Assembly (NCBI GenBank): GCA_963762145.1
Contig: CAVXJS010000014.1
Location: 352,001 to 416,000 of the forward strand
Direction: 5' to 3'
From: an uncultured Candidatus Rokubacteria bacterium
Lineage (GTDB): Bacteria; Methylomirabilota; Methylomirabilia; Rokubacteriales; CSP1-6
DNA: 64,000 nt
Shown here: positions 17,340 to 24,826 of the stretch, in pieces
Numbering within the stretch: the stretch's first letter is position 1
How the letters are laid out: the number at the start of each line of letters is the position of its first letter
Translations under genes and position numbers: made by a program
Notes under the pieces: generated by a model
Told to the model about the DNA's origin: nothing
The model's database searches: none
Seen by the model: only the letters and a program-made list of their open reading frames with translations

Positions 17340-18023
17340 TTAGCCTACGGGCACCCATCGGTAGCACCGAGTCCTTGCCGGTGGGCCCGGGGCCGAACCC
17401 CCGATCTGAGGGCCGGCGAGCGCGGCCGCCCGCGCGGCCGACTCCACATGGAGCCGCATGGACCCGGTCGGGGCGAGGTTCCACTTTCCCGGGCCATAGA
17501 GCTGCCCGTAGCGAGGACGAGCCTGTCGAGCCGGGGGACGGACGTCGCGAGCCGCTCGAGCGCGCCCATGCCGCGGACGATCACGAGCCGGTTGCCTTCC
17601 GCGCGCGTGTCGAGCGGATCCTCTTCCGGATGCGGCTCCGGGCCGGCGGCATACGCCCAGGCGATCGACTGGGCGACGAGGCGCGCGGGCGCCCGCGCGC
17701 ACCGCGGCGGCGACGAGGGTGCGGGTGCCCTCCACGCGGATCCGGGCGTTCCGATTCGTCATCTCGGTCAGGCCGGCGGGACCGACCTGATCCGGGAGGC
17801 TGGTGATCAGCTGGACGAGACCCCGGCCGCGCGGCCCGTCCCAGTCGCCGAAGCCGAGCCTCATCGACAAACGACGGCCACGAGGCTGCGCGCCGGCGGC
17901 TCGGATGGTCTCGGTCCGCCCGGGCGACCGCGTCCTGCCGGACACGCGGCAGCCGAGGGCCACCAGCTGTCTCACCAGCCGTTGTCCGATGACCCCGCTC
18001 GCTCCGGCCACCAGAACCTGCAT
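17340..18023 (-). pseudogene. NAD-dependent epimerase/dehydratase, fragmented
   Basis: MQVLVAGASGVIG..., RVEGTRTLVAAA, LVAQSIAWAY and RYGQLYGPG fall in different frames. Real decay and read errors cannot be separated. Confidence 0.6.
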
Positions 18024-18049
18024 GTTCTCCGGCGCGGCCGCGCCGCCGG

Positions 18050-19150
18050 CTAGCGCGAGATCAGCGCGGCGACCGACTTCAGCGGGGTGCCGTCTTTTCT
18101 CGTGATCGCCCGCCGCGCGGGCCAGGTCTGGTCCCCGAAGGTGGGCTGCCAGCAGGAGTGCTTGCCCGCGCCGCCGGTCACGATCACGGTGACGTCGTCG
18201 ACGGAGCGCACGGCCGGGACCATGGTGTCGGGCGCGTCCTTGGCCCCGCGCTCGATCAGGTGCGCGCCGGTACTCGTCGCCCAGGCGGGCGAGCGGGAAG
18301 CGGGCGTGCTCGAAGAGGAACTCCTTCACCTGGCGCTTGCTGAAGCCGTCGCGCGCGATGGTGGCGGCGTGCTCGGGGCCGAGGCAGAGCAGAGGATGGC
18401 CGCCGGCCAGGATGTTGTTGCTGCCCGCCTGGCCCATGGCGCCCGCGACGACCTTCAGGATGCCGAGGCCGGTGTAGCTGAAGTGGTCCTGGATGTTGTG
18501 CGGGCCCTCGCACGCGATCGCGGTGACCACGCTCGTGTCGGCGGGGAAGCCGTGCTCGACGTGCAGCGGCTCCCACGGATTCGCCGCCTCGTTCTCGGCC
18601 ACGCAGTAGGCGATCTTGGCCGGGCTGCCCTGGGTGGCGCGGTCGCCGGTGCCGGGCAGGCCGCCGCCGACGTTCATCAGCAGGAGCCGGATCGCGCGGC
18701 CGATCGTGACGTTGGCGCGGAAGCCCTGGCCGAAGGCGTTGTAGCCCGCGTTGATCCCGACCTCCTTCGCGATCGGCCCGTTGACGATGATCAGCGGGGC
18801 CACCGGATGCGTGGTGGCCTGGATCGGAGTCGAGGTTGAAGAGCGGGATCGGCCAGCGCCTCGACCGCGGTGATGATGACCGGCAGGTACTCCGGCCGGC
18901 AGCCCGCCATCACCGCGTTGATCGCGATGCGCTCCACCGTGGCCTCGCCCTGCCGCGGCGGCAGCACCGCCGACCAACTCGCGCGGGGCGCGGTCGGTGA
19001 AGCGCAGGAACTCGCGCACGTCGCGTCGGTCGGGCGGGACGATCGGCAGCCCGTCCGTCCAGCCGCGGTCCTGGTAGTGGCGGTTGATCGTCCGCGTAGC
19101 CGCCCTCGAAGCCGGAAGTCTTCGCCGCCGGGCCCGAGCGACGCGCTCAT
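18050..19150 (-). CDS. Conserved hypothetical protein, UGSC-protein partner type (several frameshifts)
   Basis: Pieces across frames: GWTDGLPIVPP, ATVERIAINAVMAGCRPEYLPV, NGPIAKEVGINAG, RANVTIGRAIRL, AENEAANPWEPLHVEHGF, LGPEHA, GGAGKHS; TAG at 18050-18052. Confidence 0.75.
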
Positions 19151-19677
19151 GCGTCGGGTGACGCGCCTTCCGGACGACCTCGACCGCCAGGTCCGCCTTC
19201 TTCATGACCTCGTCCTCGCGGATGCCGCCCAGCGGATGGGGGATCAGGGCCAGGGGCAGCTCGGCGAGCCCGCGGTTCTTGGCCTCGAGCCTGGCGAGCT
19301 GCTCGAACTCATACGTCCCCATGACCACCGTCGGGATCCCCCGCTGCTCCAGCACGATTGCGCCGTGGATACTCCACGACGTGCACGACCCTCAGTCGGC
19401 GCTGCCGACCAGGACGAAGTCGCACGTCGTGAGCGCGGCGAGGATATCCGGGTTGGGCGCGCCCGCGATGCCCTTCTCGCGCTTGACGACGTCGCGGACG
19501 CCGTAGCTCTCCTTGAGGCGCTGCGACCACCGCCAGCATCAAGGTGCCCGCGTTGGCCTTGCTGTTGTCGAGGATGCCCGCCCGCTTGCCCTCGAGGCTC
19601 GCCAGGCGCGGGGCCAGGCCGGAGGCCAGGATGCGCGGCTCGGCGGTGGGGTCGTAGAGAATCTGCTCGTCGCTCAT
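19147..19677 (-). CDS. UGSC-family probable selenoprotein (one frameshift near 19530; 3' end approximate)
   Basis: MSDEQILYDPT...LASLEGKRAGILDNSKANA...CDFVLVGSAD-TGA-GSCTSWSIHGAIVLEQRGIPTV...IPHPLGG; in-frame TGA at 19392-19394. Confidence 0.82.
19361..19381 (-). promoter_or_regulatory. Candidate bacterial SECIS hairpin for the UGSC gene
   Basis: mRNA CGUCGUGGA-GUA-UCCACGGCG, a 9-bp stem with one G-U pair, loop at +20..+22 after the UGA. Confidence 0.65.
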
Positions 19678-20175
19678 CGGTTGATCTCCTTCCGCTCGCG
19701 TAGCAGCGTCAGCATCCGGTCCACGCCCAGCTCGAGGCACCGCTTGATCTCGTCCTTCGTGGCGCGGTAGCGGTCCTCGCCCTGGCCGAACGGGTCGTCC
19801 ACGTCGCCGCCCTCGCCGGCCAGTTCGTGGAGCGTGAGGATCGGGCGGCCCTGCGCCTCCTCGTAGGCGCCGATCATGGCCTTCTGCTGCGCGGTCATGG
19901 TCACGATCAGGTCGGCCGCGGCCACGATCGTCGCGGTGGCGGCGCAGGTCGGTCGAGGCGAAGGCGTTCTCGGCGAGGTGGATGTCGTCCTCGCGCAGCA
20001 CGATGCGCGCGTCGAGCGAGGGGATCATGCCGTCGCGCGCATGGTTGGCGACACCGCCCGAGCTCACGCGGACGTTCCCATTCACCCCGCGCGCATCGAG
20101 CATCTTCTCCAGGAGGACGTGGGCCATGACGCTTCGGCAGGTGTTGGCGTGACAGACGAGCAGGACGTTGGTCAA
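19674..20175 (-). CDS. Low-molecular-weight phosphotyrosine phosphatase/ArsC-fold protein (frameshift near 19935)
   Basis: P-loop VCHANTCRS (CX5R); ADLIVTM and DVDDPF lie in the second frame (19674..19925). Confidence 0.85.
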
Positions 20176-20418
20176 CGCGACTCCTATGGAGGCTGTTGTA
20201 AGGTGATGCGGCGGTGCCAGTCTAGCAACAAGGCGGGCCGACAGGAAGATGTGGCGGATGGCCCGAGGGCGGGTGTAAGGTCACCCCGCCTGGCCGTCCT
20301 TTCGCTCGATCCCCCTAGACGCGCGGTCAGACGGGAGTGTCTTGGTGGAGCGGTCGATCGACCTCAGTACCGCGGTGCGCGCCACCGAGATCTTGCGCGT
20401 TGCGGGAGTCCTTCGGCC

Positions 20419-20592
20419 ATGCTGAGCGGACTCATCCTGGTCGGGGCCCTCCAGGGCTGCTCGGTGTCGCCGGCCCAGCAGGAGGCCATCCGCCAGGCGT
20501 GGCAGGAGAAGGACGCGGAGCGGGCCGCGGAGTGCCGCCGGGCGGCCCGTGGGTTCGTGGCCGGAGGCTGCACCGGTGGCGGCGGGCCGTGA
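20419..20592 (+). CDS. Small putative lipoprotein (start uncertain)
   Basis: LILVGALQGC lipobox-like, AEC...GGC; stop overlaps the GTG of the next gene. Confidence 0.5.
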   Translation: MLSGLILVGALQGCSVSPAQQEAIRQAWQEKDAERAAECRRAARGFVAGGCTGGGGP

Positions 20593-20957
20593 AGACCCTC
20601 ATCGTGGCTGACGATGACCGGGACTACTGTTATTTCGTTGGCGTCCTGCTCGTGCCGTTGGCCGATACCGTGACCATCGTGGGGGAGGCGGGGAGCGGCG
20701 AAGAGGCCCTGGCTCTCGTCTTGCGCAAGAAACCCGACATCGTCGTGGCCGACTTGCTCATGCCTCGCGTCAACGGGATCGAGCTGACGAGGCGCATCAA
20801 GCGAGAGCTGCCGGACACGAAGATCATCCTGATGAGCGCCTACCCCACCGAAGCCAACAAGCGCCTGGCTCTCGTTGGCGGCGCGGACGGCTTCCTGGAC
20901 AAGACGGCACTCGCCAGCGAACTACTCCCGGCGATCCGGGATATCGCGACCGGCTAA
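20589..20957 (+). CDS. Stand-alone response-regulator receiver domain
   Basis: IVADDD, PDIVVADLLMP and GADGFLDK; no output domain. Confidence 0.85.
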   Translation: MKTLIVADDDRDYCYFVGVLLVPLADTVTIVGEAGSGEEALALVLRKKPDIVVADLLMPRVNGIELTRRIKRELPDTKIILMSAYPTEANKRLALVGGADGFLDKTALASELLPAIRDIATG

Positions 20958-21949
20958 CGCGCCTCCCAGGGCGACTGCCAGTACCGCACGCCCTTGCCGA
21001 GATCCTTCCACTCCTGCTTCGGCCGCTCGGCGAGGCTCTTGCCGAAGTTGGTGCCCGGCGGCTCGTGGAGGCCCTTGCCGAGCGTGTCCGGGAAGAGCTT
21101 GGCCAGCTCCTCGGGCTCGAGCTTCCGGTCCGCCTCGATGCGGCGGATTGGCTCGGGCAGCGCCATCAGGGTGTAGCCGTAGCCGAACGAGTGGAAGACT
21201 TGCCCGTTGACGTGGCCGGCGCCCTCGCTGGCCAGGTAGACCACGAGCGGCGCCACGTTGTCGGGATCGCGCTCGGTGCCGATGGCCTGCTCGCTCGGCC
21301 ACTTGCCGGTCTGCTCGAAGACCTGCCGGCCGCGAGGGGTGGAATCGATCATCCGGGTCGCCCCGCTTGGCATGATCGCGTTCGAGGTCACGTTGTACTT
21401 GGCCATGCCGTTGGCGGTGGACCAGGAGAGTCCGATGATGCCGGCCTTGGCCGCCCCGTAGTTGGGCTGGCCCGGCGAGCCGAGCGCGGAGACCGACGAC
21501 ATCGAGATGATGCGCCCGTACTTCTGCTCGCGCATGTGGGGGGCGGCGGCCCGGGTGCAGAAGTAGGTGCCGTCCAGATGCACCGCGAGGACCGCGTCCC
21601 ACTCCTCCTTCGCCATGTTGAAGATCATCCGGTCGCGCAGGATGCCGGCCACGTTGACCAGGATGTCGATGCGGCCGTAGGTCTTGACCACCTGCTCGAC
21701 CATCTCGTTGGCCGCCTTGTGATCGGCCACCGAGCCGTAGTTGGCCGACGCGGCGCCGCCGTCCTTGACGATCTCGTCCACCACCTGCTGGGCCGGACCG
21801 GTGCCGACCCCCTCGCCGTCGAGCCCGGCGCCCAGGTCGTTCACCACCACCTTGGCGCCGGCCTTGGCCAGCGCGATCGCGATGCCGCGGCCGATGCCGC
21901 GCCCCGCGCCCGTCACGAGCGCGGCCCTGCCCTCGAGGAGCTTGGCCAT
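20954..21949 (-). CDS. Short-chain dehydrogenase/reductase (3-hydroxyacyl-CoA DH/MFE-2-like)
   Basis: TGAGRGIG, VVVNDLG, AGILRDRM and YGAAK motifs; ATG 21949. Confidence 0.92.
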   Translation of the reverse strand: MAKLLEGRAALVTGAGRGIGRGIAIALAKAGAKVVVNDLGAGLDGEGVGTGPAQQVVDEIVKDGGAASANYGSVADHKAANEMVEQVVKTYGRIDILVNVAGILRDRMIFNMAKEEWDAVLAVHLDGTYFCTRAAAPHMREQKYGRIISMSSVSALGSPGQPNYGAAKAGIIGLSWSTANGMAKYNVTSNAIMPSGATRMIDSTPRGRQVFEQTGKWPSEQAIGTERDPDNVAPLVVYLASEGAGHVNGQVFHSFGYGYTLMALPEPIRRIEADRKLEPEELAKLFPDTLGKGLHEPPGTNFGKSLAERPKQEWKDLGKGVRYWQSPWEAR

Positions 21950-21963
21950 GTCCGGGCCTCCGG

Positions 21964-23681
21964 TTACGCGGTCGCCCGCGCGAGCGGGCCGCGCAGGAGC
22001 CGTCCGGGATGCGCGCCGGTGTGCTTGCCGTCGCGCAGCAGGATCTCGCCGTTGACCACGGTGGCCGCGATGCCGCGGGTGCGCTGGATCAGCCGCTTGG
22101 CCCCCGCGGGCAGGTCCCGCACCACCTCGGGCAGCTCGGCCGCGATGGTGTCGGGGTCGAAGACCACGAAGTCGGCGGCCATGCCCTCGCGGATCAGGCC
22201 GCGGTCGGTGAAGCCCCAGTAGCTGGCGGGCACGAACGACAGCATGCGCACCGCCTGCTCGAGGGTGAGCGCCTGCTTGGTGCGCACCCAGTGGCTCAGC
22301 AGGTAGGTCTGGAGCGAGGAGTCCATGAGCTGGGAGACGTGGGCGCCCGAGTCGGAGAAGGTCACGACCGCCTGCGGGTGCTTGATCAGCTCGATCGCGT
22401 GCTCCTGGTTCTCGTTCGCGATCGGATTGAAGAAGAAGCGGTCCATGTCCTTCTCGAGGGCGAGGTCGATCATCGCCTCGACCGGGTCCACGCCGCGCTC
22501 GCGCGCGATCTCGGCCACCGACCGGTGCGGCGGATCCACCTGATCCATCACGAAGAGCCAGTCGTAGGCGGCCTGCCGCGCCTCGGTGCCGAGCGCCTTG
22601 CGGGTGTCCGCGCTCGCGCGCGGCCTCGACCAGCTTCTTGCGCAGCTCGGGATCGCGCAGGCGCGTCTGCTGCTCGGCGAGCGGCAGCGCGCGCAGCTCC
22701 TTCCACACCGGCAGCCGGTCGAACGGGAGCTGGGTCTTGAACGAGAGGACCACGCTGAGGGCCCGGCTGTGCACCTGGGCGAACATCCGCCCGCCCGCCG
22801 CGTTGGTCTCCTCGATCAGCTTCACGTAGTGGCGCCACATGTCGGGCGCGTCCTTGCGGGTGAAGAGGCCGAAGGTGATCGGCCGGCCGGTCGCGACCGC
22901 GAGGGCCTTGAGCCGCTTGTGGTAGTCGGGCAGGTCCGGGTGATCCACCTTGCGATCCACGCCCTCGCCCGCGAGCTCGAAGATGCCCGCGTTCAGCTCG
23001 CCCATCGCGCCGACCAGCCGCTGCACCTCGCTCCAGCGCGGCCATGCGGCTCGCCACCGGCTTGGAGTCGGGCGTCTCGTGGCTGGGCGACCGCGACGTC
23101 GTGAAGCCGATGGCGCCGGCCATCAGCGCGTTGCGCAGCTCGCGCTCCATCGCGGCCAGGTCGTCCTCGCTCGCGGGCCCGTCGAACGCGCGCTCGCCCA
23201 TCACGTAGGTGCGCAGCGCGGAGTGGCCGATGTAGCCCGAGTAGTTGATGCCCTTGGGCAGCGAGTCGAGCGTGTCGAGGAACTCGGGGAAGGTCGTCCA
23301 GCGCCAGTCGATGCCGGCCTCCATGGCCTCGCCCGCGATGTCCTCCGCGCGCTCGAGGTTGCGGATGACGAGGTGCCGGTCTTTCTTGGCGCAGGGCGCG
23401 AGCGTGAAGCCGCAGTTGCCCATGACCACGCTGGTGATGCCGTGCCAGCAGGACGAGGTGCCGAGCGGGTCCCAGAAGACCTGCGCGTCCATGTGGGTGT
23501 GCCCGTCCACGAATCCCGGCGCGACGACTCTGCCCTCCGCGTCGATGACTTCCTTGGCGCTTTCGCGGAGTCGACCGATGGCGACGATCTTGCCGTCCTT
23601 CACGCCCACGTCTCCGCGGTACCGCGGCAGGCCGGATCCGTCCACCACCCATCCGTTCTTGATCAGCAGGTCGTAGGCCAT
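21964..23681 (-). CDS. N-acyl-D-amino-acid deacylase-like amidohydrolase (frameshifts near 23035 and 22610)
   Basis: MAYDLLIKNG, PGFVDGHTHMD, GNCGF, SDSGAH and DRGLIREGMAADFVVFDP across three frames. Confidence 0.85.
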
Positions 23682-23805
23682 CGCGCTGGCTCCTCTCACA
23701 CCCCACCCCGGGGGTCCTTCTGGAAAGCGGCCCCATGGTACCCTGACCTGCCGGTCCCGCCACCAGACGGGGGGAAGCCGGCCCCCGCGGGCCCCGGGAG
23801 GGCAC

Positions 23806-24826
23806 ATGGACCTGGGCATCTTCGATCACCTCGACCGGCGGGACATGCCGGTGGCCGAGTTCTACGAGCACCGGCTGCGGCTGCTCGAGAAGTACGACGC
23901 GGCGGGCTTCTACTCCTACCACCTGGCCGAGCACCACGCGACGCCGCTCGGGCTGGCGCCCATGCCGGGCATCTTCCTGGCCGCGGCCACCCAGCGCACG
24001 CGGCGCATCCGCCTCGGGCCCTGCGTCTACTGCCTGCCGCTCTACAACCCGCTGCGATTGATCGAGGAGGTCTGCATGCTCGACCATCTCTCGCGGGGCC
24101 GGTTCGACTTCGGGGTGGGCCGCGGCATCGTGCCCGTACGAGATGGCGTACTTCGATCTCCACCATCTCGAGACCGAGGACATCTACCGGGAGACGCTCG
24201 AGATCGTCCTGCAGGGCCTGACGACCGACGTGCTCGACCATCGCGGGCCGAAGTACACGTTCAGAAAGGTGCCCGATGATCCTGAGGCCGCTCCAGCAGC
24301 CGCACCCGCCGCTCTGGTACGGGCTCGGCCACGCGGCGGGCGCCGAGTGGGCGGCCACCAACCGCGTCAACGTGATCACGAACTGGGGGCCGAGATGTCG
24401 GCGCCGCTCTTCGACGCGCTACCGCGAGGTGTGGCAGCGCAAGCACGGCGATGCCGCGATGCCGAGGCTCGGCATGGGCCGCCACGTGGTGGTCGCTCCC
24501 ACCGAGGACGCGGCCAGGCGCTCGGCCGCGCCAACTACGCGGTCTGGTACGCCAACCTCACCAAGCTCTGGCGCGACTTCGGCGCGGTCCCGTATTCGCT
24601 TCGCGCCCGACTTCGACGAGGCCGGCGCGCGCGGCGTGGCCATCGCGGGTACCCCGGCCCAGGTGCGCGCGGAGATCGAGCGGCAGGTCGACGGCGAGCG
24701 GCTGCAGCTACATGACCTGCCGGCTGATGTTCGGCGAGATGACCGAGGCGGAGGCGGCGCGCCAACGTCGACCTGTTCGTCGCCGAGGTCATGCCGTCCG
24801 TCACCGCGCTGGCCGTGCCGGCCTGA
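23806..24826 (+). CDS. Luciferase-like (LLM) flavin-dependent oxidoreductase (several frameshifts)
   Basis: AEHH, LPLYNPLRLIEE, DHLSRGRFDFGVGRG, PLQQPHPPLW and LFVAEVMP in shifting frames. Confidence 0.8.

What the first reader, a model, noticed from the sequence alone, without database searches (positions are those of the whole stretch)
18050..20175. UGSC selenoprotein operon coupled to an ArsC/LMW-phosphatase-fold enzyme and a conserved unknown partner
Seen: ...VLVGSAD-TGA-GSCTSWS... (UxxC) at 19392-19394 with a 9-bp hairpin whose GUA loop is at +20..+22. The gene start overlaps (ATGA) the stop of a CHANTCRS (CX5R) protein, and it is directly followed by the GWTDGLPIVPP protein. Established: UGSC-motif (seleno)proteins are a recognised family of unknown function; CX5R LMW-PTP-fold proteins include tyrosine phosphatases and thiol-dependent arsenate reductases. 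Inference: a three-gene redox module in which the Sec protein and its partner recycle or protect the CX5R enzyme, or jointly reduce a metalloid/organosulfur substrate. The CX5R linkage could be a functional clue for the family.
Basis: partly seen in the sequence, partly recalled or inferred. Interest (0 to 1): 0.85.

Follow-up and report, generated by a model that had tools for sequence, protein, structure and literature searches.

The report
UGSC selenoprotein pair beside a phosphatase
A genuine selenocysteine gene of the long-unexplained UGSC family sits with its usual partner gene in a soil bacterium, but the phosphatase-like gene in front of it is a neighbour in one genus only and says little about what the family does.

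Summary
On the minus strand of 18050-20175 lie three genes coupled by ATGA overlaps. The first is an LMW-phosphatase-fold protein (CHANTCRS). The second is a UGSC-family selenoprotein with its Sec codon at 19394-19392 and a conserved 9-bp hairpin. The third is a 365-aa protein (GWTDGLPIVPP). SelA, SelB, SelD and tRNA-Sec are all present. The frame breaks are nine single-base insertions that clean orthologs and short-read contigs lack.

UGSC plus partner is the conserved unit: 8 of 8 loci in this genome and 42 of 44 in other phyla, and it is often fused. The partner is the 'Unknown_1' domain that was reported fused to UGSC in 2008. This scan has noted the pair about 400 times on other DNA.

The CX5R gene is not part of that unit. 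UGSC follows it in 18 of 79 ortholog loci, all from one Rokubacteria clade. It is next to 0 of 44 UGSC loci elsewhere and fused in 0 of 45 long partner relatives. Its steady neighbour is an upstream SDR (66 of 79), and its closest solved relatives are YwlE phosphatases, not ArsC.

Two results add to the picture. UGSC is a remote homolog of the Sec domain of GrdB/PrdB (hhalign 92.6%), and the partner is fused to thioredoxin-reductase-like flavoproteins in 21 of 45 long relatives.

The parts
19674..20175 (-). LMW phosphatase-fold gene (CX5R: CHANTCRS; GDVDDPF loop). TTG start at 20175, TGA stop at 19676-19674. One spurious inserted base near 19929.
   Evidence: Pfam LMWPc on both pieces (38.7 and 27.1 bits). 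The clean ortholog scores 61.8 bits. Best PDB relatives are YwlE 4pic at 1.3e-15 and 4kk3 at 2e-14.
19147..19677 (-). UGSC-family selenoprotein gene. ATG at 19677, true stop TGA at 19149-19147 once the inserted bases near 19522, 19163 and 19153 are discounted.
   Evidence: PF24696 at 111.6 bits and NF041046 at 102 bits on the window piece. The clean ortholog scores 158.9 bits, and 127.1 bits against a cut-off of 125.
19392..19394 (-). Sec codon (UGA) of the U-G-S-C motif
   Evidence: TGA stands at the same codon in 8 of 8 paralogs and 9 of 9 orthologous loci.
19361..19381 (-). SECIS-type hairpin: 9-bp stem with GUA loop, starting 13 nt after the UGA, inside the coding sequence
   Evidence: 88.9% of cells paired, 4 pairs with changes on both sides, slid controls 22-46%.
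18050..19150 (-). Partner gene ('Unknown_1' family, GWTDGLPIVPP ... NAVMAGCRPEY). ATG at 19150 overlaps the UGSC stop; TAG stop at 18052-18050. Broken in the assembly by inserted bases near 19091, 18972, 18842, 18827 and 18268.
   Evidence: Clean orthologs are 363-365 aa and open. The family has 5544 representatives at E<=0.001. The motif matches Fig. S1A of PMC2398784. AF2 model pLDDT is 95.9.
20176..20953 (+). Segment of about 780 bp, specific to this genome, inserted between the SDR gene and the LMWPc gene. It carries a stand-alone receiver-domain gene (20589-20957, +).
   Evidence: In clean orthologs the SDR stop overlaps the LMWPc TTG. Response_reg scores 75.8 bits. Only partial similarities elsewhere in the genome.
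20954..21949 (-). SDR (adh_short) gene, the widely conserved upstream neighbour of the LMWPc gene (start coordinate approximate)
   Evidence: The ortholog matches adh_short_C2 at 147.7 bits. It lies directly upstream of LMWPc in 66 of 79 loci.

Best explanation
The region holds a genuine UGSC selenoprotein gene and its obligate partner gene. In one Rokubacteria (Methylomirabilota) genus, this two-gene module has come to lie directly behind an older SDR-LMW-phosphatase gene pair and is co-translated with it.

Shown: UGA 19394-19392 is read as selenocysteine with the help of the hairpin at 19381-19361. UGSC and the 365-aa partner occur together or fused almost everywhere. UGSC is a flavodoxin-like alpha/beta domain whose U-G-S-C sits at the N-terminus of a helix, and it is remotely homologous to the Sec-bearing C-terminal domain of selenoprotein B of the glycine/proline reductases. 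The partner is often fused to thioredoxin-reductase-like flavoproteins.

Inferred: the partner binds a still unknown substrate. The selenol of UGSC attacks it and ends as a Se-S bond with the nearby Cys (or a partner Cys). A thioredoxin-reductase-type flavoprotein re-reduces it with NAD(P)H. On this reading the pair is a two-component reductase that works like protein B of the Stickland reductases.

The CX5R protein is a YwlE-like phosphatase. It is most likely a passenger of the same transcript and not a component of the enzyme. The frame breaks in the window are assembly errors.
For: Sec decoding: SelB 363 bits, SelA 577 bits, two SelD, tRNA-Sec 69.3 bits; hairpin covariation.

Pairing: a partner paralog lies beside 8 of 8 UGSC genes in this genome, and two of these are single-frame fusions. 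A partner is adjacent at 42 of 44 UGSC loci from Actinomycetota, Myxococcota and others. Of the 20 partner relatives I picked by length and scanned, 14 carried UGSC at E<=0.001, in both gene orders. The fusion has been in print since 2008.

Homology: hhalign of UGSC against a GrdB/PrdB-like alignment gives 92.6% probability, E 4.6e-7, 92 columns, with Sec aligned on Sec. The control against GrdE gives 1.2%.

Electron source: 21 of 45 long partner relatives carry Pyr_redox_2 and are named thioredoxin reductase by JGI. P0172 has the CAVC motif.

LMWPc as passenger: 18 of 79, 0 of 44, 0 of 45, and 1 of 8 loci. The SDR is upstream in 66 of 79 loci, including Binatia. In three other genera of the family the LMWPc ortholog lies apart from UGSC, and in two of them (G021, G022) a sensor-kinase gene follows it.

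Assembly errors: 9 insertions and no deletions against 7 clean orthologs. Short-read contigs of three studies leave out the letter at 7 of these sites.
Against: No substrate, activity or complex has been shown; the complex prediction could not be run. No thioredoxin-reductase gene was found by tblastn within 4-7 kb at 50 UGSC loci, so the flavoprotein link rests on fusions alone. The partner has no clear solved relative, and it is unrelated to GrdE/PrdA and to the N-terminal part of GrdB, so the analogy to protein B covers only the Sec domain. Within the genus the LMWPc-UGSC junction is a conserved ATGA overlap (16 of 20 genomes). All 16 linked LMWPc keep the second P-loop Cys, against 13 of 61 unlinked ones. 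Both facts are compatible with real coupling.
Confidence: 0.7

Rival explanations
1. The three genes form one redox module in which UGSC plus partner re-reduce or protect the CX5R enzyme (for example an oxidised Cys8-Cys13 P-loop), or resolve an arsenate or other metalloid adduct on its catalytic Cys.
For: ATGA overlaps at both junctions in all five fully read clean orthologs. The colinear locus is in 16 of 20 genomes of the genus. The P-loop CHANTCRS keeps both Cys in 16 of 16 linked genes, against 13 of 61 unlinked ones. That LMW-PTP-fold enzymes include thiol-dependent arsenate reductases and redox-regulated phosphatases is recalled knowledge.
Against: The link is absent from 61 of 79 ortholog loci, 60 of which have at least 1 kb downstream. 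It is absent from 44 of 44 UGSC loci elsewhere, from 7 of 8 loci in this genome and from 45 of 45 long fusions. The Cys13 pattern follows kinship and is not independent evidence. ArsC models score far below their cut-offs. The conserved partner of the LMWPc is the SDR.
Confidence: 0.12
2. The locus is decaying: the nine frameshifts are real and all three genes are pseudogenes in this strain.
For: The assembled sequence carries 9 frame-breaking single-base insertions in 2.1 kb.
Against: All nine are insertions, and the amino-acid sequence is conserved in every frame piece. In the fetched orthologous loci of the other two low-contig assemblies (G013, G008) the three genes are likewise out of the expected frames (L018, L023), while the seven loci from many-contig assemblies are in register. 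Near-identical short-read contigs from three studies lack the extra letter at 7 of the 9 sites, among the rows shown.
Confidence: 0.05
3. UGSC is a stand-alone thioredoxin-like disulfide oxidoreductase, as suggested in 2008. The partner is merely one of its clients and not a subunit of one enzyme.
For: The UxxC motif sits at a helix N-terminus, as in thiol oxidoreductases. The 2008 paper proposes a Trx-like fold (passages read). The gene contexts of the 8 paralogs are very diverse.
Against: The AF2 model is a five-strand flavodoxin-like alpha/beta domain, and its Foldseek matches are flavodoxin-like proteins (TM 0.40-0.52). Near-obligate adjacency and fusions in both orders fit subunits better than a client. 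Homology is to the GrdB/PrdB Sec domain.
Confidence: 0.13

Closest known systems
UGSC-containing (seleno)protein family (Pfam PF24696, NCBIfam NF041046; Zhang and Gladyshev 2008, PMC2398784), with its 'UGSC/Unknown_1' fusion
   Same: The HMM matches are above cut-off. The U-G-S-C motif is encoded by TGA. The partner carries the A(V/I)N(A/G)VMAGC(R/K)PEY block shown for Unknown_1 in Fig. S1A.
   Different: Here the two parts are separate genes overlapping by ATGA, and an LMW-phosphatase gene precedes them. The function is still unknown in print: the 2026 review PMC13188914 (passages read) lists the family among selenoproteins whose biological functions remain largely uncharacterized.
Selenoprotein B of the glycine/sarcosine/betaine reductases and PrdB of D-proline reductase (Pfam GRDB PF07355)
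   Same: The Sec domain is remotely homologous (hhalign 92.6%, E 4.6e-7). The GrdB-like genes of relatives even read U-G-S-C, with G-I-P at the same spacing after Sec. The thioredoxin-system link resembles that of the glycine reductases (recalled knowledge).
   Different: UGSC has only about 175 aa and does not match PF07355. Its partner is unrelated to GrdE/PrdA (0.14%) and to the N-terminal part of GrdB (0.13%). No pyruvoyl proprotein is evident.
YwlE-type LMW phosphatases (PDB 4pic, 4kk3, 1zgg)
   Same: C-X4-C-R-S P-loop with Thr before the second Cys (NTCRS), the GD(V/I)xDPFG loop, and full-length alignment at E 1e-15 to 2e-14.
   Different: No experimental data exist for this protein, and the sequence relationship is distant. 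It forms its own ortholog group, tied to an SDR gene in Methylomirabilota and Binatia.
Thioredoxin-coupled arsenate reductase ArsC (pI258 family, TIGR02691)
   Same: Same LMWPc fold and catalytic Cys-X5-Arg.
   Different: It scores 27 bits against a cut-off of 174.3. No cysteine stands in the region where the family's Cys82/Cys89 relay lies (sequence; those positions are recalled).

Membership tests
UGSC family (PF24696 / NF041046) | Profile match above the curated cut-off | tested here: met
   Window pieces score 111.6 and 26.4 bits (cut-off 25). The clean ortholog scores 158.9 bits and 127.1 bits against NF041046's cut-off of 125. The window piece alone scores 102 bits against 125, because of the frameshift.
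UGSC family (PF24696 / NF041046) | U-G-S-C motif with U encoded by in-frame TGA (Cys in some members) | tested here: met
   GSAD-TGA-GSC at 19394-19392. Database homologs carry Cys at this column; 42 of 47 rows of A4 read C, and 7 of those rows are my own TGA read-throughs.
Bacterial selenoprotein gene | SECIS hairpin shortly downstream of the UGA | tested here: met
   A 9-bp stem with a GUA loop starts 13 nt after the UGA. 88.9% of cells are paired and 4 pairs are compensatory across 8 paralogs. The C19 copy departs from this structure.
Bacterial selenoprotein gene | SelA, SelB, SelD and tRNA-Sec in the genome | tested here: met
   all above the curated cut-offs. selA, selB and tRNA-Sec cluster on contig C9.
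'Unknown_1' partner domain (Zhang and Gladyshev 2008) | The conserved block around ...NAVMAGC(R/K)PEY(L/M)P... and association with UGSC | tested here: met
   The Fig. S1A alignment was read and compared with the partner sequence. Adjacency is 8 of 8 and 42 of 44; fusions.
LMW phosphatase (Pfam LMWPc PF01451), YwlE-like | C-X5-R-(S/T) P-loop and the Asp-Pro general-acid loop, with a profile match | tested here: met
   CHANTCRS and GDVDDPF are present. LMWPc scores 61.8 bits against 23.2. YwlE structures are the best PDB relatives.
LMW phosphatase (Pfam LMWPc PF01451), YwlE-like | Phosphatase activity and its substrate (pTyr or pArg) | not testable with these tools
   Needs an enzyme assay.
Arsenate reductase, thioredoxin-coupled (TIGR02691 / NF010053) | Equivalog score above cut-off | tested here: not met
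   27 bits against 174.3, and 24.9 bits against 215.
Arsenate reductase, thioredoxin-coupled (TIGR02691 / NF010053) | Second and third redox cysteines (Cys82/Cys89 of pI258 ArsC; positions recalled) | tested here: not met
   The ortholog has cysteines only in the P-loop (8, 13) and near the C-terminus (IKRCLE), with none between.
GrdB/PrdB selenoprotein B (PF07355) | Match to the GRDB profile | tested here: not met
   No PF07355 hit at E<=1 for the UGSC ortholog.
GrdB/PrdB selenoprotein B (PF07355) | Homology of the Sec-bearing domain | tested here: met
   hhalign of A4 against A5 gives 92.6%, E 4.6e-7, with Sec on Sec. Against a single PrdB-like sequence it gives only E 0.013. The negative control gives 1.2%.
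GrdB/PrdB selenoprotein B (PF07355) | Pyruvoyl proprotein partner (GrdE/PrdA, PF09338) | tested here: not met
   Partner against a GrdE-like alignment gives 0.14% probability. No Pfam hit for the partner.
Thioredoxin fold (proposed for UGSC in 2008) | Trx-like beta-alpha-beta-alpha-beta-beta-alpha topology | tested here: inconclusive
   The AF2 model (pLDDT 92.6) has five beta-alpha units. The Foldseek matches listed are flavodoxin-like, GTPase and Rossmann-type domains at TM 0.40-0.52. A family that is not listed is not thereby excluded.

The most novel reading that the evidence does not exclude
In this Rokubacteria genus the UGSC/partner reductase has been captured into the SDR-phosphatase operon because it serves the CX5R enzyme. 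It might re-reduce the enzyme's Cys8-Cys13 P-loop, or resolve a metalloid adduct on Cys8. If so, this would be the first physiological client of the UGSC system and a selenium-dependent control of a YwlE-like phosphatase.
Probability: 0.1. Interest if true: 0.7.

Novelty: new member of a known kind. Interest (0 to 1): 0.35.

Why it matters
[quoted passage not shown] This locus adds a clean negative result: the phosphatase-fold neighbour is a local accident of one genus, so effort should not go into an 'arsenate reductase' model for the family. It also sharpens the positive picture. UGSC is a detached copy of the Sec domain of the Stickland-type reductases. It works with a large unnamed family (5544 representative clusters) and probably draws electrons from thioredoxin-reductase-like flavoproteins. 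That gives a concrete three-protein reconstitution to try.

Tried and rejected
- The search for related loci with the UGSC alignment A2 failed for lack of a conserved stretch. Single-protein scans replaced it.
- Fold searches of the partner gave nothing clear. Foldseek found no match at E<=0.001; the best was class I fumarate hydratase 7xky_A at 1.4e-3, TM 0.24-0.29. VIA-align wide gave a best Z of 5.5, and 7xky_A at Z 4.6 over 185 residues. Only residues 183-341 were well tested, so I do not claim a new fold.
- phmmer of the partner against PDB sequences gave 0 hits at E<=10.
- The ESM Atlas returned only unnamed clusters.
- tblastn with the TrxR part of P0172 found no relative at 50 UGSC loci.
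- The Pfam survey of the other seven loci showed mixed contexts: amidases, peptide and TRAP transporters, CoA-transferases, an NDH2-type flavoprotein. It had no control for how common these are in the genome, so it is a lead only.
- The promoter/terminator scan found nothing useful.
- RNA-library contigs cover parts of the UGSC and LMWPc genes at 90-95% likeness. That shows neither expression nor a joint transcript.
- Among the rows shown, no other letter is listed at 19392-19394, but 114 rows were not shown.
- The earlier-findings search by place returned nothing.
Full report
**What is there.** All features lie on the minus strand. Translating 20180-18000 in three frames, with TGA read as U, shows three consecutive genes broken into frame pieces.

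- Gene A (20175-19674) starts with TTG and reads MTNVLLVCHANTCRS... Both pieces match Pfam LMWPc.
- Gene B (19677-19147) starts at an ATG that overlaps the TGA stop of gene A (ATGA). It contains VLVGSAD-TGA-GSCTSWS, with the TGA at 19394-19392. It matches Pfam UGSC PF24696 (111.6 bits, plus 26.4 bits for the N-terminal piece) and NCBIfam NF041046.
- Gene C (19150-18050) carries GWTDGLPIVPP and matches nothing in Pfam or NCBIfam.

**The frame breaks are assembly noise.** The window is G000:C14:352001-416000 of a 6.26-Mb, 25-contig, roughly 70% G+C genome. Names attached to close protein relatives place it in Methylomirabilota/Rokubacteria.

A DNA search of 40 relatives found the whole three-gene stretch, or at least the A/B junction, in 16 of 20 genomes of the same genus at 86-92% identity. 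All 9 loci fetched keep CHANTCRS, GSAD*GSC and GWTDGLP. In five many-contig assemblies (L019, L020, L024, L025, L026) all three genes are open, at 166-171, 175-176 and 363-365 codons, and overlap by ATGA at both junctions.

Against seven such orthologs the window has nine single-base insertions and no deletions, near 19929, 19522, 19163, 19153, 19091, 18972, 18842, 18827 and 18268. Logan contigs of soil and rhizosphere runs from three studies leave out one letter at 18267, 18826/18827, 18972, 19090, 19151, 19163 and 19522. That covers 7 of the 9 sites among the rows shown; 10 rows were not shown.

**Selenocysteine decoding.** The genome has SelB (363 bits) and SelA (577 bits) next to tRNA-Sec (69.3 bits) on C9. 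It also has two SelD genes, one with its own in-frame TGA.

There are 8 UGSC genes, each with one in-frame TGA. In 7 of the 8, a 9-bp hairpin with a GUN loop starts 13 nt after the UGA. On the alignment of all 8 copies, 88.9% of cells pair, against 22-46% for slid controls, and four pairs change on both sides. The single-sequence fold is not exceptional for this G+C content (z = -1.18), so the support comes from the comparison. Because the hairpin is coding, the residues after UGSC co-vary (SWSIH, SGSVL, SCSLH, SSSVL) as the stem requires.

**The conserved unit is UGSC plus partner.**

- tblastn with the pieces of gene C finds a paralog beside each of the 8 UGSC genes, in either order. The pieces of gene A hit only themselves.
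- Two of the 8 loci are single-frame fusions.
- The partner family is large: 5544 representatives at E<=0.001.
- I picked 20 relatives by length and scanned them. Eight are UGSC-partner fusions. Five or six are fusions that the gene callers cut at the TGA. Two are partner-UGSC in the reverse order, three have no Pfam domain, and one is a partner-Pyr_redox_2 fusion.
- Among 44 UGSC loci found with an actinobacterial Cys-form (Actinomycetota, Myxococcota, a few others), the partner is adjacent in 42. Three of those hits are fragmentary.

This pairing is in print. Zhang and Gladyshev 2008 (PMC2398784; passages and supplementary Fig. S1 read) describe a 'UGSC/Unknown_1' fusion, and their Unknown_1 alignment shows the AVNGVMAGCRPEYMP block of gene C. 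A 2026 review (PMC13188914; passages read) lists UGSC among the prokaryotic selenoproteins whose biological functions remain largely uncharacterized. Two full-text searches for 'UGSC' found no functional study. The scan's own notebook holds 401 earlier notes on this pair in at least 283 genomes, so the pair is not new to the scan either.

**The CX5R gene.** The clean ortholog matches LMWPc at 61.8 bits. Its best solved relatives are YwlE arginine/tyrosine phosphatases: 4pic at 1.3e-15, then 4kk3 and 1zgg at 2e-14. The ArsC equivalogs score 27 and 24.9 bits against cut-offs of 174 and 215. No cysteine lies between the P-loop and the C-terminal IKRCLE.

I collected 79 loci of its orthologs from species-representative genomes. 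UGSC and the partner follow it in 18, all at 84% identity or more. Neither is within 3 kb in the other 61 loci (55-79% identity; other Rokubacteria genera and Binatia), and 60 of those have at least 1 kb of downstream sequence.

What is conserved is an SDR gene directly upstream: 66 of 79 loci, and 64 of the 74 with room upstream. In three other genera of the same family the LMWPc ortholog lies on a different contig from the UGSC-partner ortholog or is not next to one. In G021 it sits between the SDR and a large sensor kinase, and in G022 a kinase-like gene follows it.

No LMWPc lies within 4 kb of the 44 UGSC loci from other phyla, with the caveat that my HMM was built from this subfamily only. 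None appears among 92 ORFs around the other seven loci of this genome. None of 45 long partner relatives carries PF01451.

Those groups are kin, so this is not independent evidence. The GD(I/V)xDP loop is conserved in all of them.

**How the pair may work.** The UGSC model (pLDDT 92.6) has five beta-alpha units, with Sec95 at the N-terminus of helix 96-111. Foldseek finds only generic flavodoxin-like and Rossmann-type domains, at TM 0.40-0.52.

The genome also encodes a PrdB-like selenoprotein (C8:71665-72807, U-P-F-C). GrdB-like genes of relatives read ...T-U-G-S-C-x-R-C-G-A-T-I-x-K-E-I-E-R-x-G-I-P..., with G-I-P at the same distance from Sec as in UGSC. Profile-profile comparison of UGSC (A4, 47 rows) with 11 GrdB/PrdB-like sequences (A5) gives 92.6% probability and E 4.6e-7 over 92 columns, with Sec on Sec. 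The control against GrdE-like proteins gives 1.2%.

The partner model is confident (pLDDT 95.9, pTM 0.94). It has no clear solved relative and is unrelated to the N-terminal part of GrdB (0.13%) and to GrdE/PrdA (0.14%). Its alignment keeps two cysteines (C84, C182) and D33-G-L-P, R151 and E185.

The 45 long relatives break down as follows: 21 carry Pyr_redox_2 (several named thioredoxin reductase by JGI), 16 carry UGSC, 7 carry no Pfam domain (apparent tandem partners), and 1 carries an amidohydrolase domain. Against that, tblastn with one such reductase domain found no relative at 50 UGSC loci.

I therefore infer, and have not shown, a two-subunit reductase. The partner binds the substrate, the selenol attacks, and a thioredoxin-reductase-type flavoprotein restores it.

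**Verdict.** The region is a new member of a known, still unexplained kind. The locus-specific angle is ordinary. The general question stays open and testable.

Noticed in passing
window 20176-20953: A segment of about 780 bp splits the otherwise overlapping SDR stop and LMWPc start (TTGA in orthologs). It carries a small lipoprotein-like ORF (20421-20592, +) and a stand-alone receiver-domain gene (20589-20957, +; Response_reg 75.8 bits). Two other loci of the genus (L048, L050) also have about 1.1 kb between the SDR and the LMWPc.
   Followed up: partly
G000:C8:71665-72807 (outside the window; L122:1498-2640): A PrdB/GrdB-like selenoprotein gene with in-frame TGA (ALVTPT-U-PFC) and a long C-terminal extension. 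Orthologs are present in several relatives.
   Followed up: partly
G000:C11:419505-420437 and C14:136744-137655: Two selD genes, one with an in-frame TGA (Sec form) and one without.
   Followed up: no
L037-L115 (LMWPc ortholog loci): An MFE-2-like SDR and this LMW phosphatase form a gene pair conserved across Methylomirabilota and Binatia (66 of 79 loci). In many Rokubacteria a sensor histidine kinase of about 1160 aa follows it. The function of the pair is unknown.
   Followed up: partly
G000:C11:389027-390613 and C7:194740-196305: In two of the eight UGSC loci of this genome, UGSC and the partner are fused in one reading frame.
   Followed up: partly
G000:C19:53033-53467: A divergent UGSC copy reads U-G-T-C and lacks the family hairpin. 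A different local stem is predicted instead.
   Followed up: no
window 19361-19394 and paralogs (alignment A1): The residues after the UGSC motif co-vary among paralogs (W..H, G/S..L, C..H) exactly as the SECIS stem pairs require. This is RNA structure shaping protein sequence.
   Followed up: partly
window 17340-23819: Neighbouring genes (NAD(P)-binding protein downstream, SDR and D-aminoacylase-like amidohydrolase upstream) also appear as fused or broken frames. The indel noise is therefore not confined to the three genes.
   Followed up: no
G021:C196:1432-6470 (L167, L190, L197, L201): Other genera of the order carry tandem GrdB-like (U-G-S/T-C) and GrdE-like genes. Stickland-type reductase genes therefore occur in Rokubacteria relatives.
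   Followed up: partly
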